Assembly (NCBI RefSeq): GCF_963921235.1
Contig: NC_086097.1
Location: 29,018,001 to 29,082,000 of the forward strand
Direction of reading: 5' to 3'
Length of the DNA stretch: 64,000 nt
DNA from: Mobula hypostoma
Lineage: Eukaryota
Shown: positions 1-56,135 of the stretch, piece by piece
Layout: the number at the start of each line of letters is the position of its first letter
Position numbering within the stretch: position 1 is the first letter of the stretch
Made by a program: the position numbers and the translations under genes
Notes under the pieces: model-generated
Database searches by the model: none
Told to the model about the DNA's origin: nothing
The model's input: only the letters and a program-made list of their open reading frames with translations

Positions 1-94
1 GATCACACGACCACACACACACACACACAAACACAACTCCGGAATCACACCGCCACACACACACACACACACACACAACTCCGGGATCACACCG

Positions 95-128
<34 letters not shown>

Positions 129-152
129 CCACCCCTCCGGGATCACACCGTC
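1..152. repeat. Compound minisatellite, unit ~GGGATCACACCGC(CA)n-ACTCC, about 4 copies
   Basis: GATCACAC units begin near 1, 41, 83 and 139, separated by (CA)n tracts; may extend left of the window. Confidence 0.9.
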
Positions 153-540
153 GTGCCCGTCGCGTCGACCAACAAAGCGGCGGCCGCGGCGCATGCTCGG
201 TGCGGCGGCATGGTGGGCTCCTTGCTGTGTTATGTGTTGGCGCCGCTCGCCACTCTCCTCAGCCGGATCACAGGTGGGTGGCGGCTGGGGCCGGGACCGG
301 GATCGCTCTGCGAGCGGGAGGGTGGCTGACGGACCTGGCAACTCCGGCTGGGTGTGACTCTCTCCGCTTCCAGCTCTGTTTTCGGCCGCCCGGGCCAGTT
401 GCCCCGTGCGCCGTTTGGGTTGAGGCCTGGCCTCGGGGTATCCCGGGATCTTATCCCCTCCCTCCCTCCCTCCCTCCCCACTCCTTTCACCATCACCGAC
501 TACGTCCCCGTCACCGTCCCGCCTTCCATCTCCCGGTTCC
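140..540 (+). promoter_or_regulatory. CpG-island promoter / first-exon region of ANGEL1
   Basis: High GC and dense CpG around the start codon, against a CpG-poor background in most of the window; NRF1-like GCGCATGCTC at 189-198. Confidence 0.7.
210..273 (+). CDS. ANGEL1: ANGEL1 coding exon 1 (MVGSLLCYVLAPLATLLSRIT-G)
   Basis: ATG at 210 in strong Kozak context (GGCATGG); peptide resembles the vertebrate ANGEL1 N-terminus as I recall it (MIASCLCYLL...); donor CAG|GTGGGT, phase 1, matches exon 2. Confidence 0.85.
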
Positions 541-1185: not shown

Positions 1186-1480
1186 ACACAAAATGTTGGA
1201 GAAACTCAGCAAGTCAAGCAGCATCTATGGAGAGAAATGTGTTTCAGGCTGAGACCCTTCATCAGGACCCCTGATGAAGGGTCTCAGCCTGAAAGGTCAA
1301 CTATTTAGTCCTGACGAAGGGTCTCGGCCTGAAACGTCGACTGCGCCTCTTCCTATAGATGCTGCTTGGCCTGCTGCGTTCACCAGCAACTTTGATGTAT
1401 GTTATTTCCTCCTTAGATTGATTTGCTGAGTTCCTCCAGCATTTTGTGTGTATTGCTCAGATTTGCAGCTTCTGTGTTTA
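1186..1480. mobile_element. Palindromic Penelope pseudo-LTR-derived element with a younger copy (1307-1402) nested inside
   Basis: Inverted arms around a perfect 25-bp hairpin 1242-1266/1270-1294; the nested insert is flanked by TATTT (1302-1306, 1403-1407). Confidence 0.7.
1307..1342 (+). ncRNA. Minimal type I hammerhead ribozyme (Penelope-associated class)
   Basis: AGTC-CTGACGA-AGG-GTCTCGG-CCT-GAAA-CG-TC/GACT: stem I AGTC:GACT, core CUGANGA and GAAA, stem II AGG:CCT, palindromic ACGT in place of stem III, GUC cleavage triplet ending at 1338. Confidence 0.8.
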
Positions 1481-4329
1481 AGATCATTCCTTATGTAAGT
1501 ACATTGAGGTAGCAAAATGAAAAACAGCGTGCAGGAACAGCTGTAGCTACAGGAAAAAGTGCAGTGCAGGTAAAGAGTGCAAAGGCCGTGACAAGGTAGA
1601 TTGGGGGTTCAAAGTGCTAATGCAGGTACAGTACAGCAAGCAAGTAGGAAAACCTGCAGAATGTTATCCACTGTATTCAGAAGATTTGCAAAGTTAGAGA
1701 GGTTATACTTGCTTCAGGTACTGGTAAGAACATATCTTGAGTACTTTGTTCAGTTTGATCCTATTTAAGGAAGTGTGTATATGTGTTGGAAGCAGTTCCA
1801 AGATGTTTTACTGCACTAAATCCTGGAATGTATAAAGAGTCATAGAGCACTACAGCACAAAAACAGGCCCTTCGACTCATCTAATCCATGCTGAGTTCTA
1901 CCTAGTCCCATTAATCTGTACCTGGGCCATAGCCCTCCCATCCATGTACTTATCTAAACTTCTCTTAAATGTTGCAGTCAAATCTGCATATACCACTTCC
2001 ACCGGCAGCTCGTTCCACATTCACACCACCCTCTGAGTGAAGAAGTTCGCCCTCAGGTTTCCTTTAAACATTTCGCCTATCACCCTTAAGCTATGACCTT
2101 AAAATTAGGTTCTAGTCTCACTTAACCTCAATGGAAAAGCCTGCTTGTGTTTACCTTGTCGATACCCCTCATAATCTTGTGAGGAAATGTTTGATAGGCT
2201 GGAGGCTTAGCTGCTCAAGATCAGGATTGCAAGAAAGGATTTGATTGAAATATATGATCCTGAAAGGGAGGATGTGGAGACGATATTTTCCTTTTTCCCT
2301 TGGAGGAAAATCTCGATCACTGTTCAAACATATGTGGTCATCCGTATATAATGACATATAAGATAATTTGACATCTCACCCTAAGCATGGGCTTTTTACT
2401 CTCCTCCCATCCGGTAGGTGCTACAGGAGCCTCTGCTCCCGCACCAGCAGGCACAGGAAGAGCTTCTTCCCTGAGGCTGTGACCCTGCTGAACCTCTCAT
2501 CACAGCGCTAAGCAATATTGCATCCATATTGTACTGTCTCAGTACTTTGATATCTGCGTGCTGTAGCACTTTTTATTTGCAGTTATTTTGTAAATAACAG
2601 TATTCTTTGCATTTCTGGTCAGATGCTGACTGCATTTCATTGGCTTTGTATCTGTACTTAGCACAATGATAATAAAGTTGAATTTAATCTAATCCAAATC
2701 TAATAATATATACAAGTGATGCTGGAAATCCAAAGCAATACACCCAGTGCTAGAGGAGCTGAGCAAGTCAGGCAGCATCTATGGAGGGGAACTATAAACT
2801 ATTTTTTTCCGCACTTGAGGCTATTTGGAACTCTTCCATTAAGGGTGATGGAAGGAGTGACAGTCAACATTTTTATAGCAGGGGTAGACATAGGTGAGGG
2901 GTGAGAGGATGAATGGAAGAAATATGGAGTGTTATATGCACAAGAATATGTATGCACAGGTAAAATGAAAAAACTTGCAGCAGGCACATAGTATCAGAAA
3001 AGCAGTATCTGCAAAAGAAATATAAAATCATACTTTTTTTAAAACAAGAAAGAACTCATTCAGATCAAAGTTCGAAGTACTTTTAATATCAAAGTACGTG
3101 TACTGTATACAACTTTGAGATTCATCTCCTTACAGGCAGCCACAAAACAAAAAAAAACCAATAGAATGCATTGAAAAAAAGACCACCAAACACCAAATGT
3201 GCAGGGAAAAAAATAGTGCAAACAATAAAAGTGAGCAAATAACATTTGGACCTGAAATTCATAAAAGTAAGTCCACAGCCACAAAGACAGCCATCATTGC
3301 AAACAATCCAGGAGCCCGTTAGTTGCAGGCCACAGCCTCAGTTCAGTGCAGAGGTGAGTAAACCTTGCAGAGCAGTAAGCTGAAAACCGACCCATCCCTT
3401 GCCGCCAGCCTTGACTCCTTGCCCTTTCCAATCTGGCCCGGTGCTTAAGTCAGCCAAGCAGTTCCTTGCTCTCGGACCTGGACCCCGCTGCTTCAATGTG
3501 CTCTCGGCTCTTGGCTCTGAGACCTGCCGCCTCGATTCAGCCCATACCCGAACTTTCCAATTTGGTCTAGCGCTTAAATCGGTGTCACCTCAGCTCGGTC
3601 CTTGCTCTTGGGCCTGGGAGCCATTGCCTCGACTCTACCTTGCCTCAGTTCTGCCATTTCAAATCACCTCCAAGTCCACTCCAGCAATGGCCAAACATTG
3701 GCTCGTTTCCCACTCTCGGGCCCAGGCCCAGGCCTGGCTGCCTCAACTTGGCCCGCACATGCTACGCCGCAACCATTCTACACTTTGGAGACCTAAGTTC
3801 ATACTGCAAATATGCCAGGTCTTACAGGTGGTTCAAAAGTTCAGCTGAAAGGGAGGTTACAGGCTATTGATCGTAGTGTTTGTTTCTGAGAAAAGGTGTG
3901 ATTAATAAAGTAATTAATAGTTGTTTTTGCTGCCAGCAAGTCATTGCTGTGCTTCACCAGCACCGTCTTAAATCAGAAACCGGGAGGTTCATTATTGTAC
4001 AAAAAGTTGTTGTAATGTTTCTACGCTGAGGTAGGGATCAGGGTTGTGCAGGTTGTTTCAAGAACTAAATGGTTGAAGGAAGGTTGTTGTTCTTGAAGCT
4101 GGTTGTGTGGGAGTTCGGGCTTCTATGCCTTCTGCCCGTTTACAGCTGCATGAAGATGGCATGGCCCATGTCCCGGGTGGTAGGGATCATTTATAGATGT
4201 TGGCTTCTTAAGGCAGCAGCTCATGTAGATATTTACAAGAAGTTGCAATTAGTTAATGGATCAGGTTGATTTTACTAAATGACAGAGTAGGCTTGAGGAG
4301 CTACTCCTAAGTTTGTGTGCTCGTGTAAC

Positions 4330-13300: not shown

Positions 13301-14390
13301 AGATATTTACAGTGATAGCATATCCAATTAGCAGAACCCCTGTGAATATTGATTACTAGTGTCAGTTCCAAAAGCCTCTTGAGTGTACACTGCAGACACC
13401 CAAAATAAACCCCTTTTGTTACAGTGTTAAAAGATGGCTCCATGAATATACAACAGGACAGAATAGTGAATGATGAAACAGATTTGTCCTAAAGTGCATT
13501 AAATGTTGGGGATAGGCAAGTTTAACAGTGTGCTAGTAGCAGGAATGTACAGTAGAACATAGAACATAGCAGCATAGGACAGACCCTTTGGCCCACAATG
13601 TTGTGGCAGCCTTTTAACCTACTCCAAGATTACCTCTTCTCTCCTACAAAGCCTCCATTTTTCTATCATCCTTGTGCCTATCTAAGAGTCTCTTATAAGT
13701 CCCTAATGTGTCTGCTTGTCACGCTTGGCAGGGGCTTCCATGCATCAACAACTCTCTGTTGATATTAACAAAAAACTTACCTCTGACTCCCCAATCCCCC
13801 AAACTTCCATCTGGCTATTCATTTGATCTCTGCCTTTTGTCAGCTTGTACAGCTCTATCAGGTCACTTCTCATCCTCCTTCACTCACTGCAGAAAAGCCC
13901 TCGCTCACTCAACATATCCTCATAAGACATGCAACTCCTGAATAAATTGGAAGGATATTCTTAACACTAATTTTTTTTTTAAGTTGAACTTGTAGTTGGC
14001 TATTCAGCTCTGTGGACAGTACTTGCCATTATCACTGGGTTACAATCCTGTCTGATGTGACATCGTTTTCCAAATATATACTGAGTACATCCAGCTCTAC
14101 CACACCACCACCTCTGTTGACCCCCTTCTCTGTCTGTAAATTATCAAACTGTGTATTTGATGGGTGGAAATTTGCTCTGACTGTAAGGAACACAGAAGTC
14201 GGTGGATTTGGTAATTGTTATAATGTAAGATCCTGGGGGACTTCCGGTAGCACTCATGGAGTGAAGTCGCGTTCTTGACTCGCTCCATTACCTCTGAGTT
14301 TTTTTTCTTATGATCAGCTATATTTTAATTAACCATTAAGGCATCAACTTTTACAATACTTTGAAATAAATTGGGCTCTTCGATAACTGG

Positions 14391-15290
14391 ATGCGTTTAA
14401 GGTCTGCTATGTCTAAGAATGGGAAAAATGGGAAGGATGGCAAACCTCCGGTTAAACCGAAAGGTATTGATTTCCCCCCGACTGAACCACCGGTGACTTT
14501 GAAAGCTATATCGGAGTTAATTCAAAGGGAAATTTCAACCTCTGTTATGGAGCTGATTCGTGCGGAAATTTCAACCTCTGTTACGGAGCTGATTCGTGCG
14601 GAAATTTCAATTAATTTCCAGAAAATTGCCGATTCAATCGATAAGATACAAACATCTATTACGGAACATCAGTCGGCTATATCTGATCTTCAAAAATCCA
14701 CGCAACAAAGTGAGCTTAAGATGGGGAAAATCGAAGAAACAATTAATGTAATGAAGAAGAAACTTGACTTTCTGACCTTTAAAAACTCTGACTTAGAATC
14801 TAGAGTGCGACGGCAGAATCTACGAATGATCGGGGTGCGTGAAGCTGTTGAATCTGATAACCCTATGAAGTATTTTTCTCAACTTTTAAAAGATGCATTT
14901 CCTACTGTATTTCCTGACCAACCACCGCTATTGGATCGCGTTCACAGAGTTCCATCATACTTGCTTAGGTCAGATAAACCTCGACATGTCATTTTACGGT
15001 TTCATTACTTTCAAGACAAGGAGAAACTGTTTCGATTTGTTCGACCTAAAGGTTTCATTGATTTTTTGGATCTTAAATTCCGATTCGTGGAAGATTTCAG
15101 TAAACCAATCCGGGATCAACGGGTTCGTTACAGATCTGTGATGTCGGAACTCTACAAGATGGATTTAAAACCAGCGCTTCTTTACCCTGCACGTCTAAGG
15201 AGTCGTACGTTGGATGGAGCCCTCCGTTTTTTTGACTCTCCATCGGATGCCCAGAGTTATCTGGATCAATTTTCACCTTCAACATCTTAA
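14391..15290 (+). CDS. L1 ORF1p (coiled coil plus RRM/CTD), intact frame
   Basis: 299-aa ORF with LESRVRRQNLRMIGVRE, DRVHR, PRHVILRFH and LLYPARLR motifs; start could be 14409. Confidence 0.85.
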   Translation: MRLRSAMSKNGKNGKDGKPPVKPKGIDFPPTEPPVTLKAISELIQREISTSVMELIRAEISTSVTELIRAEISINFQKIADSIDKIQTSITEHQSAISDLQKSTQQSELKMGKIEETINVMKKKLDFLTFKNSDLESRVRRQNLRMIGVREAVESDNPMKYFSQLLKDAFPTVFPDQPPLLDRVHRVPSYLLRSDKPRHVILRFHYFQDKEKLFRFVRPKGFIDFLDLKFRFVEDFSKPIRDQRVRYRSVMSELYKMDLKPALLYPARLRSRTLDGALRFFDSPSDAQSYLDQFSPSTS

Positions 15291-16000
15291 TTGTAATTTT
15301 TTTAACTATCTCCGTTGATCGGAGGCTGTGAATTTGTCGGTCTTAATTTTTTTTTGCCCTATTTGGGCAGAAAAGTTTATTTTTGATTACTTAATATGGT
15401 TGCTAAACTTTCTTTTTAACTGCGTCATTTCTTTCTTTTTCCCAGGGGATTCTGGGTGGTTACTTCCTTATTGTCATTTTACGTATTTTCTTTGTGGCCT
15501 TAAATTTTGTAGTTTTTTTTTAAATCTATTTTGTTTTGTAGGTTTTTATAACTAGTTAATGTTAATAATCTTTTTTTTGTTGTTCTGTTTATTCATGGGT
15601 CTGGGGTTTATTGCGGTTTTTTTAATATATTTTCTGGCTTTTATTCTGTTATGTGTTTATTTTAATTGAGTTATCTTTTTTTTATTCTTTTACTGTTTTA
15701 TTATCAGCTGATCTTTTTTATATTTACACTTTTTTTTAGGGAGCGTATACCGGAAGTCATGGGGGTAGTTTTAGTGCTTGCTTCTTTCGGGCTGGTCTGC
15801 GTTAGATTTAGCCTTGGGGTCATGGGGTGGGGGGTGGTGGGAGGGGCTTCACGTTTTAGTTTCTTTCTTCTTGGGCTATATACATTATTGAAGTATTGGT
15901 TGCGTTCTTCCCGGTATCTCTTGTATGTTCTGTTCCCTCTCCGGGTTCGTGGGTCGAGCCTATCGTCAATCCTCCTTGTTGTGGGTTGACTTTAGGGTTT

Positions 16001-19000
16001 ATGGAGTCTATTATTAATTTTGTCTCCTGGAATACTAATGGTCTTAATCATCCTATTAAAAGGAAAAAAGTTTTTAAAGTGTTCCGGAGACTTAAAGCAC
16101 AAATTTTATTCTTACAAGAGACCCATGTGCGGAGGGGGGACAGACTACGTTTTTTTAAATTCTGGAAGGGACAACAGTTTCATTCGAACTCCAATGCTAA
16201 GATTCGAGGCGACTCTATTTTTATAGACTCCTCAGTTACTTTTATACAACATGATATTATTTCTGATCCGAATGGTAGATTTCTATTGGTTAGTGGTTTA
16301 CTATTCAATAAAAAAGTAGTTTTGGTTAATGTTTATGCTCCTAATATGGACTGTCCGGAATTTTATAAATCATTATTTAATCAGTTTCCGAATTTGAATG
16401 AGTTTTCATTGATCTGGGGCGGAGATCTTAATACCTGTTTGTCTCCAGCTTTGGACCGTTCGGCTCCTTTACGGACCTTACCTAATAAATCTGCAACTTT
16501 GATTAATTCATTCCTTTCTGATTCTGGGTCGACGGACATTTGGCGCTTTTTGCATCCTCAGGAAAAAGATTTTTCTTTTTTTTCACATGTTCATCATTCC
16601 TATTCAAGAATTAATTATTTCTTTATTGATTCTCGTCTTATTTCCTCAGTGATTAAATGTGATTATGATTCTATAACCATTTCGGATCATGCTCCACTTA
16701 AGCTTTCTATTAAAATTCTGGCCAATATACAAAATAATAGACAATGGCGTTTTAATTCGCTGTTGCTTCAGGACTCGGACTTTGTTAACTTTATGAATGA
16801 ACAGATTGATCTTTTTTTTACAATTAACCATACAGAGGATATTTCTGTTAACACTCTTTGGGACACTTTTAAAGCTTATATTCGTGGTCAGATTATCTCG
16901 TATTCTGCTGCTTTGAGGAAGAAGCAGAAGCAGGAGGAGTTGGTAATTGTGGACAAGATTAAGGAAATTGATAAGAAATATGTTATAGCTCCTTCTGAGG
17001 AGTTATATAAACAAAGAACTGAACTTCAAATGGAACACAGTTTATTACTCTCGTCCTCGATTGTAAACCAATTAAAGAAAACAAGAAGTGAATTTTATTT
17101 ACACAGTGACAAAATTGGCAAACTGTTGGCTAATCAATTGAAGTCTAATTATGGTAAATCTCAAATTAATCAGATTTATAACCAAAATGATCGACTGATA
17201 CTTGATCATGTGGGGATTAATCAAACCTTCTGTGATTTTTACTCTTCCTTATATCAATCAGAGTCTCCTCGAGATTCTAAATATATGAATGATTTTTTTA
17301 GGTAATTTAGACTTCCCTGAGATTTCACAGGATATGGCTTCTATGTTAGATACTCCCATTACCATGGATGAGATTAAGAATGTTATTTTCTCTATGAATT
17401 TGGGGAAAGCTCCTGGCCCTGATGGGTTTACCGTAGAATTTTATAAATGTTTTGCTCCTTCATTAATCCCTTGGCTCTGTAGGGTTTTTGAGGCTTCATT
17501 GAAACTTGGTAAACTTCCTGAATCTTTTAATAGAGCGTCAATTTCTTTAATATTAAAGAAGGATAAAGATCCTGCTCAATGTGCATCTTATAGACCAATA
17601 TCTTTATTAAATGTTGATTCTAAAGTTTTTTCTAAGGTATTAGCAAATAGATTAGAAAAAGTACTTCCCTCTATTATTTCGGAAGACCAAACGGGTTTTA
17701 TTAAAGGTCGTTACTCTTTTTATAATATTCGTACACTGTTAAATATCGTTTATACTCCCTCACAAAATGTTCCTGAATGTGTTATCTCTTTAGATGCCGA
17801 GAAAGCTTTTGATAGAGTAGAATGGCCTTATTTATTTAAGGTGCTTGAAATGTTTAATTTTAGCTCGAAATTTATATCCTGGATTAAACTCTTATATTAT
17901 TCTCCTGTGGCCTCGGTCCGTACTAACTCTTTAAGTTCACCTTTTTTCCCTCTTTTTCGAGGTACTCGACAAGGTTGTCCTCTTAGTCCCTTATTATTTG
18001 ATATTGCATTAGAACCTCTTGCAATTGCCATTCGAGAATCTCCAAATATTACTGGGATAACTCGGGGCTTAAAGTCCCCTAAATTATCACTCTATGCTGA
18101 TGATTTACTTTTATATATTTCTAATCCTCAAAAATCCATCCCGGCTGTTTTAGAGTTATTAGTACAATTTGGTCTTTTTTCAGGTTATAAATTAAATCTT
18201 AGTAAGAGTGAACTCTTTCCGATTAATAAACAACTTCCCTTATATTATAAATTTCCATTTAAATTGATTAATAATTATTTTTCATATCTTGGGATTAAAA
18301 TTACTTGTAAATACAAAGATTTATTTAAGACTAACTTTTTACCATTAATAGACCATATTACTCAACTTTCATCTAAATGGTTTCCTTTATATTTAAGCAA
18401 CATACATCAAAGTTGCTGGTGAACGCAGCAGGCCAAGCAGCATCTATAGGAAGAGATTTAACTTTGATTGGTCGTATTAATGCAGTTAAAATGTTTTTTT
18501 TGCCAAAATTTTTATATATATTTCAGGCATTACCAATCTTTGTTCCAAAATCTTTTTTTGACAAAGTTGACTCTAAAATTTCTTCATTTATTTGGCAGAA
18601 TAAAAACCCGAGACTGGGTAAAATACATTTACAGAAAGCTAAGAGAGATGGAGGCTTAGCATTACCTAACTTTAGATTTTATTATTGGGCAATTAATATT
18701 CGACATATGAAATTCTGGTTACTGGACCAGGATATACTATCCATTCCTAAATGGGTAGTATTGGAATTACAATCTGTTCAGGGTTTTACACTTGGCTCTA
18801 TTTTAGGTTCCTCTCTTCCTTTTGATTGGAAACGCCTTAAACAGGTGTCTAACCCGATAGTTAAATATACCTTGCGTATTTGGTTTCAATTCAGAAAATT
18901 TTTTGATCTTAATCAATTTGGGTTAGCGATTCCTATTTTAGGTAATATTTTTTTCTCCCTCTTTTACGGATCGTGCTTTTCAAATTTGGAAGACTAAGGG

Positions 19001-19840
19001 TATTTCACGGTTTTTGGATTTATTTTTAGATAGTTCCCTTATGTCTTTTGAACAATTATCTAATAAATATAACTTATCAAGAATACATTTTTTTAGATAT
19101 CTACAAGTTAGAAATTTCCTAAGTACTATACTTTCTTCCTTTCCAATGCTTCCTCCTACATACATTTTAGATACTATAATCAATCTTAATCCATGTCAGA
19201 AAGGTGCATCGGCTATGATTTATAATATTATTATGAAACTTAGGAAAGCTCCATTTGATAAGATTAGGGTAGATTGGGAACAGGAATTGGGGTTTACCAT
19301 TTCCGTGGATGACTGGGGGCAGATTTTACAATTAGTCAATACTTCCTCTATCTGTGCTAAACATTCCCTAATTCAATTTAAAGTTGTTCATAGAGCACAT
19401 ATGTCCAAAGATAAGTTAGCGCGCTTTTATTCTCATATTAATCCTTTTTGTGATAGATGTCCGGGGCAGATAGCCTCTTTAACTCATATGTTTTGGTCTT
19501 GCCCTACTTTGGAAACTTTTTGGAGAGACATTTTTAATATTATCTCCAAGGTATTGAATATAGATATCTCTCCTCACCCTATTACTGCTATCTTTGGACT
19601 ACCTAAAATTTCCAGTAATCTCTCCCCTTCAGCCCGTAGAATGATTGCATTTCTTACTTTAATGGCGAAAAGATGTATCTTACAACATTGGAAAGAGCTT
19701 AATGCTCCAACTACCTTTTTTTGGTTTTCTCAGACGATATTATGCTTGAATCTGAGAAAATTAGAAGCAATCTTTATGACTCCTCATTTAAATTTGAACA
19801 GACTTGGAGATCTTTCATTCAATATTTTCATTTAATGTAA
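16001..19840 (+). pseudogene. L1 ORF2 (APE endonuclease, reverse transcriptase, CCHC knuckle), disrupted
   Basis: SWNTNGLN, LQETH, GDLN, SDH; KAPGPDG, RQGCPLSP, YADD; CDRC...HMFWSC; frameshifts near 17300, 18955 and 19755 and a 59-nt insertion at 18397-18455. Confidence 0.93.
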
Positions 19841-22319: not shown

Positions 22320-22600
22320 AATGAACTGGAATTTATTTTTGCTACCTCCCACCTTCTTATTCTGGCTTAACCCCTCACCTGCCAGTTTGTACTCCTTTTC
22401 CTCCCACCTTCCCCCTCATATTCATTCCCTCCCACCTTCTTATTTTGGCTTATTCCCCTTTCTCTCCAGCCCTGATGAAGGGTCTCAGCCTGAAACTTCA
22501 CCTGTTTACTCCTCTTCACATATCTGAGCATGTACTCTCCGTAGATTTGCTGAGTTCCTCCAGCACTTTGTGTGTGTCACTTTGGACCTTCAGCATATGT
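22320..22600 (+). mobile_element. Penelope-like terminal repeat fragment with a degenerate hammerhead core, just after exon 4
   Basis: CTGATGA-AGG-GTCTCAG-CCT-GAAAC at 22472-22496 followed by TGCTGAGTTCCTCCAGCAC. Confidence 0.6.
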
Positions 22601-27285: not shown

Positions 27286-28305
27286 CACAGCCAATGATAC
27301 ATTTTGAATTGAGGCCTCTCTTAGGAAATGCAATTGGCAACAAATGGCAGAATGATAACGAGAAAATCAGTAATGTTGGTAATGCTGGGTGAATAGATAC
27401 ATATTGGCCAGAGCATCCAAATCTACTCCCCGTTCCTCTTTAAGTGGTGTCGTGGAATCTGTAATTCAGGAGGGAAGATGGAGCCTTGGTTTAATGTCTT
27501 ATCAAAGATTTCTCCTCTGCTGATTCAGCAGAGCCCTGCACGCAGTTGTCAGTGAAGATTCTGGAGAGGCTTCCCATTCACTCCAATCGAGGGGTCATTG
27601 AAGGTTCCGGGTTAGCGTGGCGTGGTAGCATAGCAGCTAGTGTAACGGTTTACAGTGCCAGTAGTCAGAGTTCAATTTCCTCCACTGTTTGTAAGGAGTT
27701 CGTACGTTCTCCCTGTGACTGCATAGGTTTCTTCCACGTGTTCTGGTTTCCCTCCACATTTCAAAGACAAATGGGTTAGTAAGTTGTTGGGACCAGAACA
27801 TGGCAACACCTGTGGGCTGCCCCCAGAGCATCCTCACACTGTGTTGATCATTGACGTTTAGATCACAGAACAGTGCAGCACACAATGTTGTGCCGACCTT
27901 TTCACCTACTATCTAACCATTCTCTTTCACAGTTCTCCATTTTTCTATCATCTCTAACAGTCACTTAAATGTTTCTAATGTATCTGCCTCTACCACAATC
28001 CCAGCTGAGTGTTCAGTGCGTCTACCGCTCTCTGTGTATTTAAAAAAAACCTTACTTCTGACATTGCCCTCCCCTATACTTTCCTCCCATCACCTTAAAA
28101 CTATCTCTACCCTGGGAAAAAGTCTCTGGCTATCCGCTCTCTCTATGCCTCTTATCTCTTATCAAGTCACCTCTCATTCTCCTTTGCCCTGAAGAAAAAA
28201 GCCCCAGGTCACTCAGCCTTTCTTCACTGTCTGCTCGATGTACATGTGACAAATAATGTTTACTTTTATCTTTCCCGTGTGTGAACCTGCTTGTTTTCTC
28301 TCCAG

Positions 28306-28748
28306 GTTATGACTGCTTATACAAACGGCGCACTGGCATCAAGACAGATGGGTGTGCTGTGTGCTTTAAGCGGGACCGGTTTAGTTTAGTCTCTGAGCAC
28401 CCTGTGGAATATTTCCGACCCATTGTGGAAACGTTGAACAGGGACAATGTGGCACTGCTGGCTTTGCTCCGGCCCCTAACTCCAGGCTCCGGCCAAGACG
28501 CCTCAAAGCTGCCCGACATCTGCGTGGCGAACACTCACCTCATCTTCAACCCGAGGCGGGGGGACATCAAACTCACCCAGCTAGCTGTGTTGTTTGCTGA
28601 AATTCAGCAGGTGGTGCAGGCAGCTCAGAGTGATGGCACACCTTGCCCCATCATCCTCTGTGGGGATCTGAACTCTGTCCCAGACTCCCCTCTGTATAAA
28701 CTCATCTGCAATGGAGAGCTGTACTATTATGGAATACCTACCTGGAAG
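28306..28748 (+). CDS. ANGEL1: ANGEL1 exon 5 (YKRRTGIKTDGCA...VANTHLIFNPRRGDIKLTQ...IILCGDLNS...IPTWK)
   Basis: Acceptor TTTTCTCTCCAG; donor AAG|GTAAGG; EEP motifs ANTH and GDLN. Confidence 0.97.
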
Positions 28749-29327
28749 GTAAGGAGGCAGCATGAGATTTCAGTATTTCCAAAGCTATCATTAGAGTCAT
28801 AGAGCCCTGCAGTACAGAAACAGTCTGTGTTAACTAACTCTGCCAAGTCCCATTGACCTGCACCTGGACCATAACCCTCCATACCCCTCCATCCATATAC
28901 TTATCCAAACTTAAGTGTTGAAGTCAAACCTGCATCCACTTGTTCTGCTGGCAGCTTATTCTATGCTCTCACCACCTTCTGAGTGAAGTTCCCCTTAAAC
29001 GTTTCACCTTTCATCCTTAACCCATGACCTCAGGTTCTAATCTCACCCAACCTCAGTGAAAAAGCCTGCTTGCGTTTACCCGAATTATACCCCTCATAAT
29101 TTTGTGATGCTATCAAATTGTACTTCATTCTCCTATGCTCCAGGGAATAAGGTCTGAACTTATTCAGCCTTTCTCTATAATGCAAGTCCTCACGTCCCAG
29201 CAACATCACTGTAAATTATTTCAATCTTACTGTACAACTTCCCAGGTTTTTCTGTAATGAGATGCCTCTGGCCCTTTTGCTGAGAGGATGCCAGTGATCT
29301 GTTTTATTATAATTAATGTTTCGGCAG

Positions 29328-36138: not shown

Positions 36139-39100
36139 GGAAAGAAACTCGGATGGTTGTTTACCTCCCAGGTGCCAGGGTCCGGGATGTTTCAGATTGC
36201 GTCCAAGATATCCTGCAGTGGGAGGGAGAACAGCCAGAGGTTGTGGTACGTATTGGTACCAATGACATAGGTAGGAAGAGGGAAGAGGTCATGAAAGGAG
36301 ACTACAGGGAGTTGAAGGAAGTTGAGAAACAGTACCGCAAAGGTAGTAATCTCGGGATTACTGCCTGTGCCACGTGTCAGTGAGTATAGGAATAGAGTGA
36401 GGTGGAGGATAAATGTGTAGCTGAGGGATTGGAGCAGGGGGCAAGGATTCAGATTTCTGGATCATTGAGACTTCTTTTGGGGCAGGTGTGACCTGTACAA
36501 AAATGACAAGTTGCACTTGAATCCGAGGGGGACCAGTATCCTGGCGGGGAGGTTTGCTAAGACTACTGGAGAGAGTTTAAACTAGATTTGCTGGGGGGTG
36601 GGAACCGAACTGAAGAGACTGGGGAAGAGGAGGTTGGCTCACAAACAGAGAAAGCTTGTAGGTGGTGTGAGAGGGAGGATAGGCAGGTGATAGAGAAGGG
36701 ACGCGCTCAGACCGATGGTTTGAGATGTGTCTATTTTAATGCAAGGAGTGTTGTGAACAAAGCAGATGAGCTTAGAGCGTGAATCAGTACTTGGAGCTAT
36801 GATGTGGTGGCCATTACAGAGACTTGGATGACTCAGGGGTGGGAATGGTTACTTTGAGTGCCAGGTTTTAGATGTTACAGAAAGGACAGGGAGGCAGGCA
36901 AAAGAGGTTGATCGGAGATAGTGTCACGGCTGCAGAAAAGGTGGACGCCATGGAGGGATTGTCTACGGAGTTTCTGAGTGGAGGTTAGGAACAAGAAGGG
37001 GTCAATAACTTTACTGGGTGTTTTTTATAGGCCGCCCAATAGTAACAGGGATATCAAGGAGCAGATAGGGAAACAGATCCTGGAAAGGTGTAATAATAAC
37101 AGTTGTCGTGATGGGAGATTTTAATTTCCCAAATATTGATTGGCATCTCCCTAGAGCAAGGGGTTTAGATGGGGTGGAGTTTGTTAGATGTGTTCAGGAA
37201 GGTTTCTAGACACAATATGTAGATAAGCCTACAAGAGGAGAGGCTGTACTTGATTTGGTGTTGGGAAATGAACCTGGTCAGGTGTCAGATCTCTCAGTGG
37301 GAGAGCATTTTGGAGATAGTGATCATAATTCTATTTCCTTTACAATAGCATTGGAGAGAGATAGGAACAGACAAGTTAGAAAAGTGTTTAATTGGAGTAG
37401 GGGAATTATGAGGCTATCAGGCAGGAAATTGGAGGCTTAAATTGGAAACAGATGTTCTCAGGGAAAAGTATGGAAGAAATGTGGCAAATATTCAGGGGAT
37501 ATTTGTGTGGTGTTCTGCATAGGTACATTCCAGTGAGACAGGGAAGTTATGGTAGGGTACAGGAACCGTGGTGTACAAAGACTGTAATAAATCTAGTCAA
37601 GAAGAAAAGAACTTACAGAAGGTTCAGAGAGCTAGGTAATGTTAGACATCTAGAAAATTATAAGGCTAATAGGAAGGAGCTTAAGGAAATTAGGAGAGCC
37701 AGAAGGGGCCATGAGAAGGCCTTGGCGGGTGGGATTAAGGAAAACCCCAAGGCATTTTACAAGTATGTGAAGAGCAAGAGGATAAGACATGAAAGAATAC
37801 GACCTATCAAGTGTGACAGTGGGAAAGTATGAATGGAACCATAGAAAATAGCAGAGGCACTTAATGAATGCTTTACTTCAGTATTCACTATGGAAAAGGA
37901 TCGTGGTAATTGTAGTGATGACTTGCAGCAGACTGAAAAGCTTGAGCATGTAGATATTAAGAAAGAGGATGTGCTAGAGCTTTTGAAAAGCATCAAGTTG
38001 GATAAGTCACCGGGACCGGATGAGATGTACCCCAGGCTACTGTGGGAGGCAAGGAAGGAGATTGCTGAGCCTCGGGCAATGATCTTTGTATCATCAATGG
38101 GGACGGGAGAGGTTCCGGAGGATTGGAGGGTTGCGGATGTTGTTCTTTTATTCAAGAAAGGGAGTAGAGATAGCCCAGGAAATTATAGACCAGTGAGTCT
38201 TATCTCAGTGGTTGGTAAGTTGTTGGAGAAGATCCTGAGAGGCAGGATTTATGAACATTTGGAGAGGTATAATATGATTAGGAGTTGTCTGCATGGCTTT
38301 GTCAAGGGTGGATCGTGCCTTACAAGCCTGATTGAATTCTTTGAGGATGTGACTAAAGACATTGATGAAGGAAGAGCAGTAGATGTAGTGTACATGGATT
38401 TCATCAAGGCATTTGATAAGGTACTCCATGCAAGGCTTATTGAGAAAGTAAGGAGGCATGGCATCCAAGGGAACATTGCTTTGTGGATCCAGAACTGGCT
38501 TGCCCACAGAAGGCAAAGAGTGGTTGTAGACGGGTCATATTCTGCATGGAGGTCGGTCACCAGTGGAGTGCCTCAGGGATCTGTTCTGGGACCCTTACTC
38601 TTCGTGATTTTTCTAAATGACCTGGATGAAGAAGTGGAGGGATGCGTTAGTAAGTTTGCTGACGACACAAAGGTTGGAGGTGTTGTGAAGAGTGTGGAGG
38701 GCTGGCAGAAGTTACAGCGGGACATTGATAGGATACAAAAGTGGGCTAAGAAGTGGCAGATGGAGTTCAACCCAGATAAGTGTGAAGTGGTTCATTTTAG
38801 TAGGTCAAATAAGATGGCAGAATATAGTATTAATGGCATTGTGGAGGATCAGAAGGATCTTGGGGTCAGAGTCCATAGGACACTCAAAGCAGCTGTGCAG
38901 ATTGACTCTGTGGTTGAGAAGGATGTGGAAGCCATCAAAAAGGTACAGAGGAGATTTACAAGGATGTTGCCTGCATGGAGAGCATGCCCTATGAAAACAG
39001 GTTGAGTGGATTCGGCCTTTTCTCCTTGGAGCGACAGAGGATGAGAGGTGACCTGATAGAGGTGTATAAGATGATGAGAGGCATTGATCGTGTGGCTAGT

Positions 39101-50152: not shown

Positions 50153-50830
50153 CATAGTAGTCATAGTCATACTTTATTGATCCCGGGGGAAATTGGTTTT
50201 CGTTACAGTTGCACCATAAATAATAAATAGTAATAAAACCATAAATACTTAAATAGTAATATGTAATTGTGCCAGGAAATAAGTCCAGGATCAGCCTATT
50301 GGCTCAGGGTGTCTGACCCTCCAAGGGAGGAGTTGTAAAGTTTGATGGCCACAGGCAGGAATGACTTCCTATGACGCCTCTGTGTTGCATCTCGGTGGAA
50401 TGAGCCTCTGGCTGAATGTACTCCTGTGCCCGCCCAGTACATTATGTAGTGGATGGGAGACATTGTCCAAGATGGCATGCAACTTGGACAGCATCCTCTT
50501 TTCAGACACCACCTTCAGAGAGTCCAGTTCCATCCCCACAATATCACTGGCCTTACGAATGAGTTTGTTGATTCTGTTGGTGTCTGCTACCCTCACCCTG
50601 CTGCCCCAGCTCACAACAGCAAACATGATAGCACTGGCCACCACAGACTCGTAGAACATCCTCAGCATTGTCCAGCAGATGTTAAAGGACCTCAGTCTCC
50701 TCAGGAAATAGAGACGGCTCTGACCCTTCTTGTAGACAGCCTCAGTGTTCTTTGACCAGTCCAGTTTATTGTCAATTCATATCCCCAGGTATTTGTAATC
50801 CTCCACCATGTCCACACTGACCCCCTGGAC
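50153..50830 (-). mobile_element. Rex1/Babar-like LINE 3' end
   Basis: ORF MLRMFYESVVASAIMFAVVSWG...HPLH and RKSFLPVAIKLYN; AATAAA and (TATGAC)n tail on the minus strand; related + strand tail at 58180-58400. Confidence 0.75.
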
Positions 50831-51573: not shown

Positions 51574-54122
51574 TCTTACAAAGAAATGGAGAGTGAACAG
51601 TGAGACTTGCTCCTGGCAGGTGCCTTTGCAAAGCTTTTTGGACAGATGCCCCTCGGGTGGGTAGAATGAAGTTCCTTGTAGGGTATATAATTACCATTTT
51701 ATGGTCTGAATTAGGCTATTTTAATCTTTTTGCTTTTTTTTAGTGGTCTGGAATATCGAGTACACTGCTTTAAGATAATGAAAATACAGTTGGCCTTTTG
51801 GTGGGGGTCTGGAACAAGTAGGCTGATGATTTTGTCACCAAGAGTTTCCAGAATGTGATTTTCTTTCATTTGTTTCCCAGGCAAGAGCTTACTTGAAAGC
51901 CAATTGGACACAGTGATAATTTGCCAAGTGTTATTTCTGGGCACTTTCTGTTCGCCCCCCATACATACCTGTGGCTGGATGTGGAACTGTGCTGGATTCC
52001 CTAGAAGCAAACCATTCTATATTCCTTTCATTTGCACTATACAAGGCAGAGTCCACTGTCTGTTAACCAAATCTGAGCTTTCTTTTCCCCTCTGGCCCTG
52101 GAGTTTTAAAATCTTCCTTCTGCTTCTCAGTAGGTCGCAGTCAATTCAGAAACAGTCCTGGTTTGCACCTTTGGACAGGCATGCATGGATTGGGGAAGGG
52201 ATGGGAACGGGGTGGTTTTTAAATCCCTCTAGGGAACTAGTACATTAATTCAACACAAACAGGTTCTTCTTCCTTCTCAAACATAGTCTGGCATACATAA
52301 ATACCCCTGACTCTGGCCTTTCCCATTCCATATATATCTATGTGTGTTTCTGACACACACATATATTCTGGACCTTGTCAGCAAAATAGTGTCGTGATCC
52401 CTGACTCTGAAATTCTTTCCTTTAATGAAAGCAGTATCAGGGTTCTGTCTTCTTTCCATGGTAGCCTGACTGAGTTAGGAGTTAGTAACAGGTGTGAGGC
52501 TCTCTCTATCCCTGCATCAGATTTCCAGGGGATTCCCTGCTGCTTGTAGATGAAGCAGCTGAAGAGTGGGTTGACTCAGGAAGACCAGAACTATTGGAGA
52601 CAAATTCACCAAAAATAAAGGGTTCTGTACCTGGTACCCTCTCTAATTTCTTTGTTGCTGGATAAACAACCAAAAACAACACACATAAAAAGTGCTTTAG
52701 GAACTCAGCAAGTCAGGCAGCTTCTACAGAGGAGAATAAGAATATTAATGTTTTGGGCCAAGATCCTTCATCAGAACAGATCTTCTCAGCCTGAAACGGC
52801 GACTGTTTATTCCCCTGCATAAATCCTACCTGATCTGCTGAGTTCCTCCAGCAGTTCGTGTGTGTTGCTGAGTATTTCCAGCATCTGCATGATCTCTTGT
52901 GTTTATAAACGAATGTTTTGAGTTTGAAGACTGATAATGAGGCAAGAGATTTCAGGTGCTGGAATCGGGAGCAACAAACAAATGCTGGAGGAACTCCACG
53001 GGTTAAGCAGCATCTACAGGCATGGAGTTTGGGGTGTGGATCTGTTGAGGGGTCTCGATCCGAAATGTCAACTGTCCATTTCCCTCTGCAGATGCTGCCT
53101 GACTGAGCTGCTCCAGTGGTTTATTTTTGCTGACTGTTGTCTGCCTGTGCTTTAACTGTGTGATGCAGTCAATGGACTGAATATTGTCTTTCTGTCACAG
53201 CGGAGTGCTTTTTGCTCTCCGAACTGAAAATCAGAGCCTTTCCACAAGTTCACTGCCAAATCCCAGCCACTCCTGCTTGCTCCGTTTTTCAGACTGTTTC
53301 TTTCTCTCTCCTTGACCCTGAGCCCCTCTCCAGGGAAGGGGCAATGGCTGGGATTCCCAGCACGTCTCGTCCTCAATTCAGGATGAGGTGAGTGTGTGAA
53401 TCGAGGCCCCGCTCGAAGCTCCTCGCTCTCCCACTCGTCATGTTCAGGTAATAAGGAAGAGCAGAGTGAGCTTTATTTGGCTTGTGTTTCAGTGGCACAG
53501 TGCTCAAAATGTTGTCCCAGTAGTCACATGGAGCTGTCTTATCTCGTGCCAGGGAGTGCAAGGCATTGGTTCCTAGGCTCTGCTGAGCGTTTAGCAAGTG
53601 CCACCACACAGCATGGCCTCTTCCCACACAACTTTACATTGTGTTGTGTGCTGCTGGGGCTGAGAATGATGTGCACCTTACTGTGGAAGGGAATCCATGT
53701 TCAGTACCTGTAACACTAAATTTGGACATTCTCGAAATAGGGGGAGGAAATAAAGGAGCTAAGTACAGCCCTTCAGACCTCTTCTACTTGAACTTAGGGC
53801 TGATCTGTCTCTGAACTCAATGTGTCCTTGCAGTGAACCTTTTAATGTAGAGGTGATGAGCCAGGTTTCTTCTGGTGTGCAGATTCCGTGTTGGAATGGG
53901 TATAGGTGCTATAGGAAAAGGACCCATCCTGGCTAATCAGGACACTTAATGTACCAGCCACTTGGGCAGGTTAATGTCACTGCAGACACTGCGATAAAGT
54001 CAATGAAGTGAGGGAGTGTAGGAACCTCTTAAATTGTGTTTTGAGGCTTCGTGTCTCATCCTTAATCATCGCGCATTTTGGAAATGAATCTTGTGTCTCA
54101 AACCAATGAGCTATATTGTTAC

Positions 54123-54846: not shown

Positions 54847-56135
54847 AGTTTGTTTATTTGAAGTGTTGTCATTTTTGCTATGGGTGAATGTTTGCAATGC
54901 ATTGATAACGTGTTTAATAATGTATGGCTGCAATTGTTGCAAGCTTTGTGGAACTGTCTCTGAAACACAGACAGGAGATCTGCAGATGCTGGAAATTCAG
55001 AAAAACACACACAAAATGTTGGAGGAACTTAGGTCAGGCAGCATTTACAGAGGGAGATGGATAGTCAATGTATTGATGAAGGGTCTTGGCCTGAAACATC
55101 GACTGTTTATTCCCCTCCATAGATGGTGCCTCACCTGTTGGCTTCCTCCAGCATTTGGTGTGCGTGTGTTTCTTTAAACACAGTTTAATACATATATTTT
55201 CTGTACTCTAAGCGAACTTGGAACTAAATCTGGATGTGGATGAATGTTTTGAGAGGCAATGTTGTAAACTAGGTAAACACAGAACAGCACAGCATGTTAT
55301 ACTTCTGCCCGTGATGTTGTGTCGACCGCTTAACGCACTCCAAGATCAGTCTAACCCTTCCCTCTCAAATGGCCCTCCATTTATCCATGTGCAGAAGGTA
55401 CTCTTAAATGTCCCTAATTATCTACCTTTACCACCACCCTGGTAGCACTCCCTTACCACTGTGTGTGTGTGTGTGTGATATATATGTATATATATTTTAA
55501 ATAACTATCTCTGACATCCACCCCTCCAATCATCTTATATATACTTGTATTAATTATTTCCACCCTGGGGAAAAAGTCTCTGGCTGGCCACACTATTTAT
55601 GCTTCTTTCATCTGTACACCTGTACCAAGTCGCATCTCATTCTCTTTCACTCCAAAGAGAGAAGCTCCGGCTTGCTCAGCCTATTCTCCTAAAACATTCT
55701 CTCTAATCCAGGCGGCATCCTGGTTAATCTCCTCGGCCCTCTCCAAAGCTTCCACATCCTTCCTACATTGAGGTGACCAGAACTGATCGAATGATCTAAC
55801 CAGAGTTTTATAGAGCTGCAACATTACCTCATGGCTGTTTAACTCAGTCCCCCAACTAATGAAGGCCAGCACACCATATGCCTTCTTAACAACCCTGTCA
55901 ACTTCGAGGGATCTACAAATGTGAACCCTACATCCGGGTTTGAGAATGGTCTCCAAGCCTGCCTTGTTCCATGCAACAACTAGGAGCCTCTGGTCCACCA
56001 TCATTCACTGTGGAAGAGCATGTGGGATGGCATTGAGAACCTCAAGGACTGCATTGGGAGCATGTGTGTGTGATGATTATTACAATGCTATTACAGCATC
56101 AACATAAGGTGTTACTCCAGTCACTACGCTACTGT

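What the first reader, a model, noticed from the sequence alone, without database searches (positions are those of the whole stretch)
1307..1342. Intact minimal hammerhead ribozyme on the sense strand of ANGEL1 intron 1
Seen: AGTC CTGACGA AGG GTCTCGG CCT GAAA CG TC|GACT has every hammerhead core nucleotide, a 4-bp stem I, a 3-bp stem II and a self-complementary ACGT where stem III should be. The 96-nt insertion carrying it (1307-1402, TATTT duplication) begins exactly at the first base of stem I and retains its CpGs, so it looks young. Established: Penelope-like elements carry such minimal type I hammerheads, which cleave as dimers through the palindromic stem III. Inference: the ANGEL1 pre-mRNA could be cut after C1338 about 1 kb into the gene. 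Degenerate cores also lie at 1271, 22472, 53043 and 55073.
Basis: partly seen in the sequence, partly recalled or inferred. Interest (0 to 1): 0.72.

Follow-up and report, generated by a model that had tools for sequence, protein, structure and literature searches.

The report
Retrotransposon tail fragment carrying minimal hammerhead
The hammerhead-like motif is real, but it is one of tens of thousands of identical copies left by a recently active Penelope-like retrotransposon, and it most likely does nothing to the gene whose intron it sits in.

Summary
The sequence is as described. Window 1307-1342 carries every hammerhead core letter, a 4-bp helix I, a short helix II and the ACGU palindrome. 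It is not a locus-specific feature. The identical 36-mer occurs 32,886 times in this 3.48-Gb genome, the whole 96-mer 3,347 times, and the 33-mer core with up to 2 mismatches 100,164 times.

Full-length relatives carry a reverse-transcriptase plus GIY-YIG frame that ends about 300 bp upstream of the motif. They also show two alternative 3' ends about 40 nt apart and frequent head-to-head inverted pairs. All of these are marks of Penelope-like elements (PLEs).

The window copy is a very young, 5'-truncated, tail-less PLE end. It is nested in an older inverted PLE pair, about 1 kb into intron 1 of an angel-homolog gene, on the sense strand.

No Rfam hammerhead model matches it. Folding puts the core in an inactive pairing, and no compatible partner copy lies nearby. 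Published minimal PLE hammerheads are inactive as monomers or need the PLE protein. Cutting of the pre-mRNA is therefore unlikely, though it was not tested directly.

This is a known kind of element and of low interest.

The parts
1307..1342 (+). Minimal type-I hammerhead motif of the PLE tail: helix I AGUC/GACU, core CUGACGA, unpaired A, helix II GGGU/GCCU around CUCG, GAAA, palindrome ACGU, cleavage-site C at 1338
   Evidence: Direct reading; fold; identical 36-mer at 32,886 genome places; no Rfam hammerhead hit
1307..1402 (+). Young, 5'-truncated, tail-less 3' end of a Penelope-like element (profile positions 315-416 of 418)
   Evidence: nhmmer hit E 5.7e-36; identical 96-mer at 3,347 places; classed 'no-tail'
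1302..1306 (.). TATTT, left copy of the candidate 5-bp target-site duplication
   Evidence: Direct reading; family duplications elsewhere are 10-15 bp, so this one is short and only probable
1403..1407 (.). TATTT, right copy of the candidate target-site duplication
   Evidence: Direct reading
1194..1275 (-). Older PLE tail, minus arm of a head-to-head inverted pair; its CpGs have decayed
   Evidence: nhmmer hit E 2.3e-11; forms the 1237-1300 hairpin that Rfam scores weakly as miRNA-like
1269..1306 (+). Older PLE tail, plus arm, 5' part (degenerate hammerhead: helix I lost, AGGU in place of ACGU); interrupted by the young insertion
   Evidence: nhmmer hit 1269-1302
1408..1478 (+). Older PLE tail, plus arm, 3' part that continues after the young insertion. 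TGCTGAGTTCCTCCAGCATTTTGTGTGT at about 1424-1451 matches other old copies.
   Evidence: Direct reading against the old copies printed. End coordinate approximate.
210..273 (+). Coding part of exon 1 of the angel-homolog gene (ATG at 210, donor CAG|GTGGGT)
   Evidence: sequence; contigs X1 record 1 and X2 record 9 cover 150-275 without differences and then leave the stretch
28257..28799 (+). Open frame holding an exon of the angel-homolog endonuclease/exonuclease/phosphatase domain (exon borders not set)
   Evidence: Pfam Exo_endo_phos E 4.1e-07; human ANGEL2 6rvz E 1.6e-53
22468..22580 (+). Older copy of the same PLE tail; core letters intact, helix III palindrome lost (ACUU)
53042..53103 (+). 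Older, decayed copy of the same PLE tail
55071..55164 (+). Older copy of the same PLE tail

Best explanation
Window 1307-1402 is the 3' terminal piece of a recently active Penelope-like retrotransposon (PLE). It was made by target-primed reverse transcription that started at the proximal of the family's two internal start sites, so it has no 'tail', and it ended at the 5' edge of the element's minimal hammerhead. It landed in a T-rich spot inside an older head-to-head pair of PLE ends, in intron 1 of an angel-homolog gene, on the sense strand.

The 36-nt hammerhead motif is part of the transposon's own RNA. Whatever role it has (processing of PLE transcripts, probably helped by the PLE protein) belongs to the element's life cycle. 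At this locus it is an inert passenger and does not cut the host pre-mRNA to any meaningful extent.

Shown: the identity of the element and its copy numbers. Inferred: how the fragment was made, and that it is inert.
For: Abundance:
- 33-mer with up to 2 mismatches: 100,164 places, reversed control 0.
- Exact 36-mer: 32,886 places.
- Exact 96-mer: 3,347 places.
- A family profile finds 49 copies in 214 kb, that is the window plus 15 arbitrarily placed 10-kb stretches.

PLE identity:
- Open frames ending about 300 bp upstream of the motif match RVT_1 (L023, E 1.3e-20) and GIY-YIG (L006 E 5.9e-4, L007 E 1.9e-4). A fourth frame, L018, matched nothing.
- 13 of 29 loci carry the extra ~40-nt tail and the rest end near GATGTRTGTT. 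This fits the two start sites and the optional 30-40 bp tail of Frangieh et al. 2024 (PMC11167929, main text read).
- At least 7 head-to-head inverted pairs lie among the 49 hits. This fits that paper's finding that both DNA strands are extended.
- 5' truncation points vary.

Inertness:
- The minimum-energy fold of the 36-mer (-10.0 kcal/mol) pairs core GACG with CGUC (probability about 0.97). The hammerhead-compatible structure scores -6.0.
- In the 1180-1480 context the hammerhead helices are not predicted.
- The nearest sense copies have lost the ACGU palindrome: 1269-1302 has AGGU and 22468 has ACUU.
- Purine-flanked copies that could start at the cut site (1,181) are no more frequent than the neighbouring control position (1,014).
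- In the literature, monomeric minimal hammerheads are inactive and dimers weak (PMC4209133, parts 1-2 read). The Anolis PLE hammerhead needs the PLE protein, and no RNA-seq ends lie at its cut site (PMC11167929). Only 1 of 9 Xenopus retrozyme dimers cleaved in vitro (bioRxiv 10.64898/2026.07.22.740005, passages read).
Against: - Cleavage was never tested. The only runs found are assembled contigs, which cannot show RNA ends.
- All core letters are intact, and the family is evidently active or was so very recently. PLE protein that assists cleavage could therefore be present in some cells.
- Thermodynamic folds ignore co-transcriptional folding and proteins.
- Across 39 older copies the non-CpG core positions differ from the majority less often (21 of 350) than non-core motif positions (59 of 553) or the downstream tail (309 of 2,077). 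The motif therefore appears to be maintained in the source elements and presumably does something for them.
- The GIY-YIG matches lie just under Pfam's cut-off (20.5 and 22.1 bits against 22.6).
Confidence: 0.9

Rival explanations
1. The copy is catalytically competent in vivo. It would act either as a trans dimer with transcripts of other identical copies through the ACGU helix III, or with help from the PLE-encoded protein, and it would cut the angel-homolog pre-mRNA after C1338.
For: All core letters, helix I, helix II and the palindrome are intact. There are 32,886 identical copies that could supply partners. The family is very young, so PLE protein may be made. Protein-assisted cleavage is documented for an Anolis PLE (PMC11167929).
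Against: - A 4-bp ACGU duplex is weak: about -3.5 kcal/mol for the 10-mers cofolded.
- The predicted folds sequester the core.
- The 10.1-11.1 pair is G.U instead of the conserved G-C (feature list in PMC4209133).
- No Rfam hammerhead model matches.
- There is no excess of genomic 5' ends at the cut site.
- Published monomers are inactive, and no in vivo ends were found in Anolis.
- In the window, sense copies (11) outnumber antisense copies (6), so there is no sign of purging, though the sample is small.
Confidence: 0.05
2. The ~96-nt unit (hammerhead to the proximal reverse-transcription start site) is a discrete short product with a defined 5' end, not a random truncation. It could be a copy of a PLE transcript that begins at helix I, or of a short non-autonomous, retrozyme-like RNA mobilised by the PLE.
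For: 5' ends cluster at the first base of helix I.
- Of 32,886 exact 36-mers, 26,691 continue with the family's next 5 nt (a loss of 18.8%). The following 7 nt lose only a further 11.8% (23,534).
- A purine directly before AGTCC occurs 1,670 times, against 407 one base further upstream.
- In the sample, L008, L016, L029 and the window copy start there.
Against: - The cluster accounts for only about a tenth of copies, and truncation points otherwise form a continuum.
- The count on the other side (Y before GTCC, 1,886) is confounded by family variants seen in L003, L011 and L026, so the peak is not bracketed.
- There are no tandem arrays at this locus.
- An end-joining preference or a reverse-transcriptase stop at a structured region would give the same pattern.
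Confidence: 0.2
3. The motif is a chance resemblance without any relation to hammerhead ribozymes.
For: No Rfam hammerhead model matches. The fold energy is no better than shuffles: z -0.37, with 64 of 200 shuffles folding as well. There is no covariation in 23 copies: 83.7% of cells paired against 83.7% shuffled, and 296 of 500 shuffles reach the observed value.
Against: The motif sits exactly where PLEs are published to carry minimal hammerheads. It shows the unpaired base after A9, the palindromic 15.2/16.2 and a 4-bp helix I (PMC4209133). Its core positions are the least divergent part of the tail across old copies.
Confidence: 0.03

Closest known systems
Minimal hammerheads of metazoan Penelope-like elements (Cervera and de la Pena 2014, PMC4209133)
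   Same: - Type-I motif without its own helix III.
- Palindromic 15.2/16.2, an unpaired base between A9 and 10.1, and a helix I of 4-5 bp.
- Located in the terminal repeat/tail of an RT plus GIY-YIG element.
- Thousands of dispersed, mostly solitary copies, with some pairs on opposite strands 100-700 bp apart.
   Different: - Helix II here is 4 bp with two wobbles; the paper describes 6-8 bp.
- 10.1-11.1 is G.U in this copy and in 84 of the first 100 listed exact siblings, and G-C in 16.
- Copy number is about ten times the paper's 'remarkable' cases (4,000 in coelacanth, 9,000 in Xenopus), although the search methods differ.
- The paper reports high sequence variability within a genome; here the copies are very uniform.
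- The paper's supplementary figures and tables were not read.
Poseidon PLE of Anolis carolinensis, PAc (Frangieh et al. 2024, PMC11167929)
   Same: - Two adjacent internal reverse-transcription start sites, giving an optional 30-40 bp tail.
- Both DNA strands are extended, which can explain head-to-head pairs.
- T/A-rich target.
- The hammerhead lies about 60-100 nt upstream of the start sites.
   Different: In PAc the ORF starts inside the hammerhead. Here the ORF ends about 300 bp upstream of it, and no ORF start was seen in the tail. No biochemistry exists for this family.
Animal non-LTR retrozymes (Cervera and de la Pena 2020, PMC7229834, abstract only; Li, Clavereau and Pollet 2026 preprint, Results read)
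   Same: Type-I hammerheads with weak helix III, related to PLE terminal repeats. Monomer derivatives are dispersed through genomes, including introns.
   Different: Retrozymes are tandem arrays that give circular RNAs. This locus has no direct tandem repeat of the unit, and the family has autonomous copies with an ORF.
Conserved intronic hammerheads of amniotes (RECK and CTCL introns; named in the figure legend of PMC6155905)
   Same: A sense-strand hammerhead inside an intron of a protein-coding gene.
   Different: Those are single-copy, conserved, canonical hammerheads with tertiary loop contacts that work as monomers (recalled, apart from the legend). This one is a multi-copy transposon remnant without helix III or loops, and it is not recognised by Rfam models.

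Membership tests
Hammerhead ribozyme (type I) | Catalytic core C3 U4 G5 A6 N7 G8 A9 / G12 A13 A14 / A15.1-U16.1 / H17 | tested here: met
   Direct reading of 1311-1338: CUGACGA, GAAA, U, C
Hammerhead ribozyme (type I) | Three helices around the core | tested here: not met
   Helices I (4 bp) and II (3-4 bp) exist. Helix III cannot form within one molecule, because ACGU has no loop; it could form only between two copies.
Hammerhead ribozyme (type I) | Match to a curated hammerhead covariance model (Rfam) | tested here: not met
   No hammerhead family at gathering score or at E up to 10 on 701, 57 and 61 nt
Hammerhead ribozyme (type I) | Site-specific self-cleavage | not testable with these tools
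   Only assembled contigs were available, and they cannot show RNA ends
PLE minimal hammerhead (Cervera and de la Pena 2014) | Lies in the terminal region of an element encoding RT plus GIY-YIG | tested here: met
   RVT_1 E 1.3e-20 in L023. GIY-YIG E 1.9e-4 and 5.9e-4 in L007 and L006, just under Pfam's cut-off. One of four frames had no hit.
PLE minimal hammerhead (Cervera and de la Pena 2014) | Unpaired nucleotide between A9 and 10.1 | tested here: met
   A at 1318 before GGGU
PLE minimal hammerhead (Cervera and de la Pena 2014) | Conserved G10.1-C11.1 pair | tested here: not met
   G.U in this copy (CCU before GAAA). Among the first 100 exact matches, 84 have U and 16 have C at 11.1.
PLE minimal hammerhead (Cervera and de la Pena 2014) | Palindromic 15.2/16.2 | tested here: met
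   C-G within ACGU. In 23 copies the pair is standard in 16 and broken in 7.
PLE minimal hammerhead (Cervera and de la Pena 2014) | [quoted passage not shown] | tested here: not met
   In 23 copies, 83.7% of cells are paired, equal to the shuffles (296 of 500 reach it). There are no compensatory changes in helices I or II.
Penelope-like element | Optional 30-40 bp 3' 'tail' from two internal reverse-transcription start sites | tested here: met
   13 of 29 loci have the ~40-nt extension and the others end near GATGTRTGTT. L005 has a tail with an indel, seen by eye.
Penelope-like element | Inverted 5'-truncated partners and partial tandems | tested here: met
   At least 7 head-to-head pairs among 49 hits. 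Minus/plus pairs and plus/plus pairs 2-3.5 kb apart appear in the place lists.
Non-LTR retrozyme | Direct tandem repeats that each carry a hammerhead, giving circular RNA | tested here: not met
   There is no direct tandem of the unit at 1180-1480. The neighbouring copy is older, degenerate and part of an inverted pair. Circular RNA was not testable.

The most novel reading that the evidence does not exclude
This PLE family is so young (3,347 identical 96-mers) that its protein may still be made in some cells. In those cells the protein could assist the hammerhead at the many sense-strand intronic copies, this one included. PLE activity would then bring a genome-wide wave of pre-mRNA cutting, a cost or a regulatory layer of transposon activity that has not been described.
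Probability: 0.04. Interest if true: 0.65.

Novelty: new member of a known kind. Interest (0 to 1): 0.15.

Why it matters
The finding matters little for the gene. The motif is a routine by-product of a transposon family that has scattered tens of thousands of identical copies through this genome, so one copy in one intron is not a sign of ribozyme-based regulation.

For transposon biology the family is a useful natural data set. It is a very young, very uniform PLE with more than 100,000 hammerhead-bearing ends. It shows clean tail and no-tail 3' ends, many head-to-head pairs, and a modest pile-up of 5' ends exactly at the start of the hammerhead.

The most successful lineage carries G.U at 10.1-11.1. 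Genomic copies also show no excess of starts at the cleavage site. Both points fit the published in vitro finding that hammerhead cleavage is not needed for PLE insertion.

Tried and rejected
- Rfam at gathering score on the whole window and at E up to 10 on three shorter stretches: no hammerhead family. The only hits are weak miRNA-like matches to the 1237-1300 inverted repeat, far below gathering scores.
- DNA search of the own genome with the 96-mer: empty, because very common words are skipped. This is uninformative.
- RNA evidence: no RNA holder was listed. The four runs laid are assembled contigs guessed to be RNA. They cannot show starts or ends, and the very high summed depth over 1302-1493 comes from repeats all over the genome.
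Loci for could not be cut for the same reason. Family statistics therefore rest on 214 kb plus whole-genome pattern counts.
- Covariation test on 23 copies: no signal.
- Homodimer cofold: this gives an extended duplex, not a hammerhead dimer. The true dimer is a crossing structure that the program cannot score.
- The young/old split was made against a mixed-family majority and is crude. Only the 39-copy 'old' group is used. Five 'young' copies and five copies with fewer than 30 downstream sites were left out.
- Earlier findings of the scan: nothing on record.
- ANGEL1 versus ANGEL2 was not resolved. I ran no further search on it.
- Chance motif: considered and rejected (see rivals).

Full report
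Observation. Window 1307-1342 reads AGTCCTGACGAAGGGTCTCGGCCTGAAACGTCGACT. This gives helix I AGUC/GACU, the core boxes CUGACGA and GAAA, U16.1 and C17 (C1338), and the self-complementary ACGU where helix III would be. It can also be read, in the register published for Penelope-like elements, as an unpaired A followed by GGGU/GCCU around CUCG. In that register the 10.1-11.1 pair is G.U. A loose hammerhead descriptor is not significant in the window: 15 matches against 7.6 +/- 4.4 expected, with 8 of 100 shuffles reaching 15. The 20-mer around helix II recurs 6 times against 0 expected. No Rfam hammerhead model matches, either at gathering score over the whole window or at E up to 10 over 701, 57 or 61 nt. 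The 36-mer folds no better than shuffles (z -0.37).

A very abundant repeat. In the window's own genome (3.48 Gb, 200 contigs) the 33-mer core with up to 2 mismatches occurs 100,164 times, with a reversed control of 0. The exact 36-mer occurs 32,886 times and the exact 96-mer 1307-1402 occurs 3,347 times. A profile built from 14 long copies finds 49 copies in 214 kb, that is the window plus 15 arbitrarily placed 10-kb stretches. Seventeen of them lie in the window, 11 on the plus strand and 6 on the minus strand.

What the element is. In copies that extend upstream, an open frame ends about 300 bp before the motif. Of four such frames, L023 matches RVT_1 (E 1.3e-20). L006 and L007 match GIY-YIG (E 5.9e-4 and 1.9e-4, just under Pfam's cut-off), and L018 matches nothing. 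RT followed by GIY-YIG is the Penelope-like element architecture (PMC4209133; PMC11167929). Three further marks fit. First, 3' ends fall into two classes: 13 of 29 loci carry an extra ~40 nt and the rest end near GATGTRTGTT. This matches the two internal reverse-transcription start sites and the optional 30-40 bp tail shown for the Anolis element PAc (PMC11167929, main text read). Second, at least 7 head-to-head inverted pairs occur among the 49 hits, as expected if both DNA strands are extended, which that paper reports. Third, 5' truncation points vary, and target duplications of 10-15 bp can be read at L003, L009, L016, L017, L024 and L029.

Anatomy of the locus. An older head-to-head pair occupies about 1194-1478. 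Its minus arm is 1194-1275. Its plus arm is 1269-1306 and continues at 1408. The two arms make the 1237-1300 hairpin that Rfam scores weakly as miRNA-like. The young 96-bp copy (profile positions 315-416 of 418) sits inside the plus arm between two TATTT. A 5-bp duplication is short for this family. However, the minus arm of the old pair lacks the same 5 nt relative to other old copies (my reading by eye of the rows), which favours a real duplication. The copy is of the no-tail class.

Gene context. An ATG at 210 opens MVGSLLCYVLAPLATLLSRIT, followed by CAG|GTGGGT at 273/274. Two long contigs from public runs cover 150-275 without a difference and then leave the stretch, as spliced transcripts would. 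A plus-strand frame at 28257-28799 matches the endonuclease/exonuclease/phosphatase family and human ANGEL2 (E 1.6e-53; about 58% identity by my count of the printed alignment). The motif therefore lies on the sense strand about 1 kb into intron 1 of an angel-homolog gene. I did not resolve ANGEL1 against ANGEL2. That the N-terminus resembles human ANGEL1 is my recollection only.

Is the hammerhead maintained? In 39 older copies the non-CpG core positions differ from the majority at 21 of 350 sites. Non-core motif positions differ at 59 of 553, the downstream tail at 309 of 2,077, and CpG positions at 56 of 171 (ten copies were left out as described under Tried and rejected). The core is therefore the most conserved part among source elements, while inserted copies decay, mostly at CpGs. 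Thirteen of 27 copies that span the motif keep every core letter. There is no covariation. In 23 aligned copies 83.7% of cells are paired, equal to the shuffled mean, 296 of 500 shuffles reach the observed value, and helices I and II show no compensatory change. Among the first 100 exact matches to the four-variant 31-mer, 80 have C7 with U11.1 (the window's form), 15 have C7 with C11.1, 4 have U7 with U11.1 and 1 has U7 with C11.1. The most successful lineage therefore carries the non-canonical G.U.

Will it cut the pre-mRNA? This was not tested directly. No RNA run was listed, and the contigs that were laid cannot show ends. The indirect evidence is against it.
- The minimum-energy fold of the 36-mer (-10.0 kcal/mol) pairs core G5-A6-C7-G8 with C15.2-G16.2-U16.1-C17 (probability about 0.97). 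The hammerhead-compatible structure scores -6.0.
- In the 1180-1480 context (-149 kcal/mol) the region is absorbed into the long inverted-repeat fold, and the hammerhead helices have probabilities of 0.1 or less.
- A partner for a dimer is lacking in cis. The copy 40 nt upstream has AGGU and no helix I, and the next sense copy with intact core letters (22468) has ACUU.
- Genomic copies carry no footprint of cleaved templates. A purine before GACTG, which marks copies that could begin at the cut site, occurs 1,181 times. A pyrimidine before ACTG, one base on, occurs 1,014 times.
- In the literature, a monomeric minimal hammerhead showed no detectable cleavage, and dimers cleaved weakly, mostly at non-physiological Mg2+ (PMC4209133). 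The Anolis hammerhead cut only with PLE protein added, its mutants did not affect insertion, and no RNA-seq reads ended at its cut site (PMC11167929). Only 1 of 9 Xenopus retrozyme dimers cleaved at 6 mM Mg2+ (preprint 10.64898/2026.07.22.740005, passages read).

The 5' boundary. Of 32,886 exact 36-mers, 26,691 continue with the family's next five bases, a loss of 18.8%. The next seven bases lose a further 11.8%, to 23,534. A purine directly before AGTCC is found 1,670 times, against 407 one base upstream. The count on the inner side (1,886) is confounded by family variants seen in L003, L011 and L026. About a tenth of copies thus start at or next to helix I. I cannot say why. Possible causes are an RNA 5' end, a reverse-transcriptase stop or a joining preference.

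Comparison and verdict. This is a member of the published class of minimal PLE hammerheads. It departs from that class in three ways: a shorter helix II, G.U at 10.1-11.1, and very high, very uniform copy number. It is not comparable to the conserved single-copy intronic hammerheads of amniotes. I found no mention of cartilaginous fishes in the main text of PMC4209133, and I did not read its supplements. The 2026 preprint sampled one chondrichthyan. My impression that the tail sequence resembles repeats of cartilaginous fishes is recollection and was not tested. The finding is real but ordinary, and the inference about the host gene is unlikely.

Noticed in passing
Family-wide; window 1307; L008, L016, L029 at locus position ~1498: 5' ends of copies pile up at the first base of hammerhead helix I. 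A purine before AGTCC occurs 1,670 times against 407 one base upstream. 18.8% of exact 36-mers fail to continue over the next 5 nt, against 11.8% over the following 7 nt. The cause is unknown.
   Followed up: partly
Upstream of helix I in long copies (e.g. L004 ~1480-1500; L043:9070, L033:962, L033:2345; window 22443-22469): A pyrimidine tract ending in CAG or TAG abuts helix I in young and old copies alike, and it looks like a 3' splice site. In Drosophila virilis the PLE intron ends at the 5' edge of helix I (PMC4209133). Sense-strand copies in host introns might offer cryptic acceptors.
   Followed up: no
window 1237-1300: A near-perfect 25-bp inverted repeat with a 3-nt loop, made by the head-to-head junction of two old PLE ends. 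Rfam scores it weakly as several miRNA precursors (best 29.4 bits against a gathering score of 150). Such junctions are common in the family and could feed small-RNA pathways.
   Followed up: no
Whole genome: The PLE tail family reaches 49 detectable copies in 214 kb sampled, with 100,164 near-identical hammerhead cores. This is roughly ten times the minimal-hammerhead counts called remarkable in coelacanth and Xenopus in 2014, although the methods differ.
   Followed up: partly
window 14370-19832 (+): An L1-type LINE with long open frames lies inside the same intron, in sense orientation: Transposase_22 (E 2.8e-07), Exo_endo_phos (E 4e-09), RVT_1 (E 1.2e-39) and zf-RVT (E 1.7e-06). A young PLE tail fragment sits inside it at 18395-18456 (-).
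   Followed up: no
window 37845-39002 (+) and 50372-50776 (-): A further reverse-transcriptase frame (RVT_1, E 1e-33) and a frame matching ALKBH8_N (E 9.7e-12). They are probably other retroelement remnants.
   Followed up: no
window 1-140: A (CA)n-rich, imperfectly repeated block (ACACAC... AACTCCGGGATCACACCGCC) lies just upstream of the gene's first exon.
   Followed up: no
Place lists (e.g. C1:65847889/65851405; C1:67276675/67278990): Identical tails on the same strand 2.3-3.5 kb apart are likely full-length or partial-tandem PLEs with both terminal repeats.
   Followed up: no
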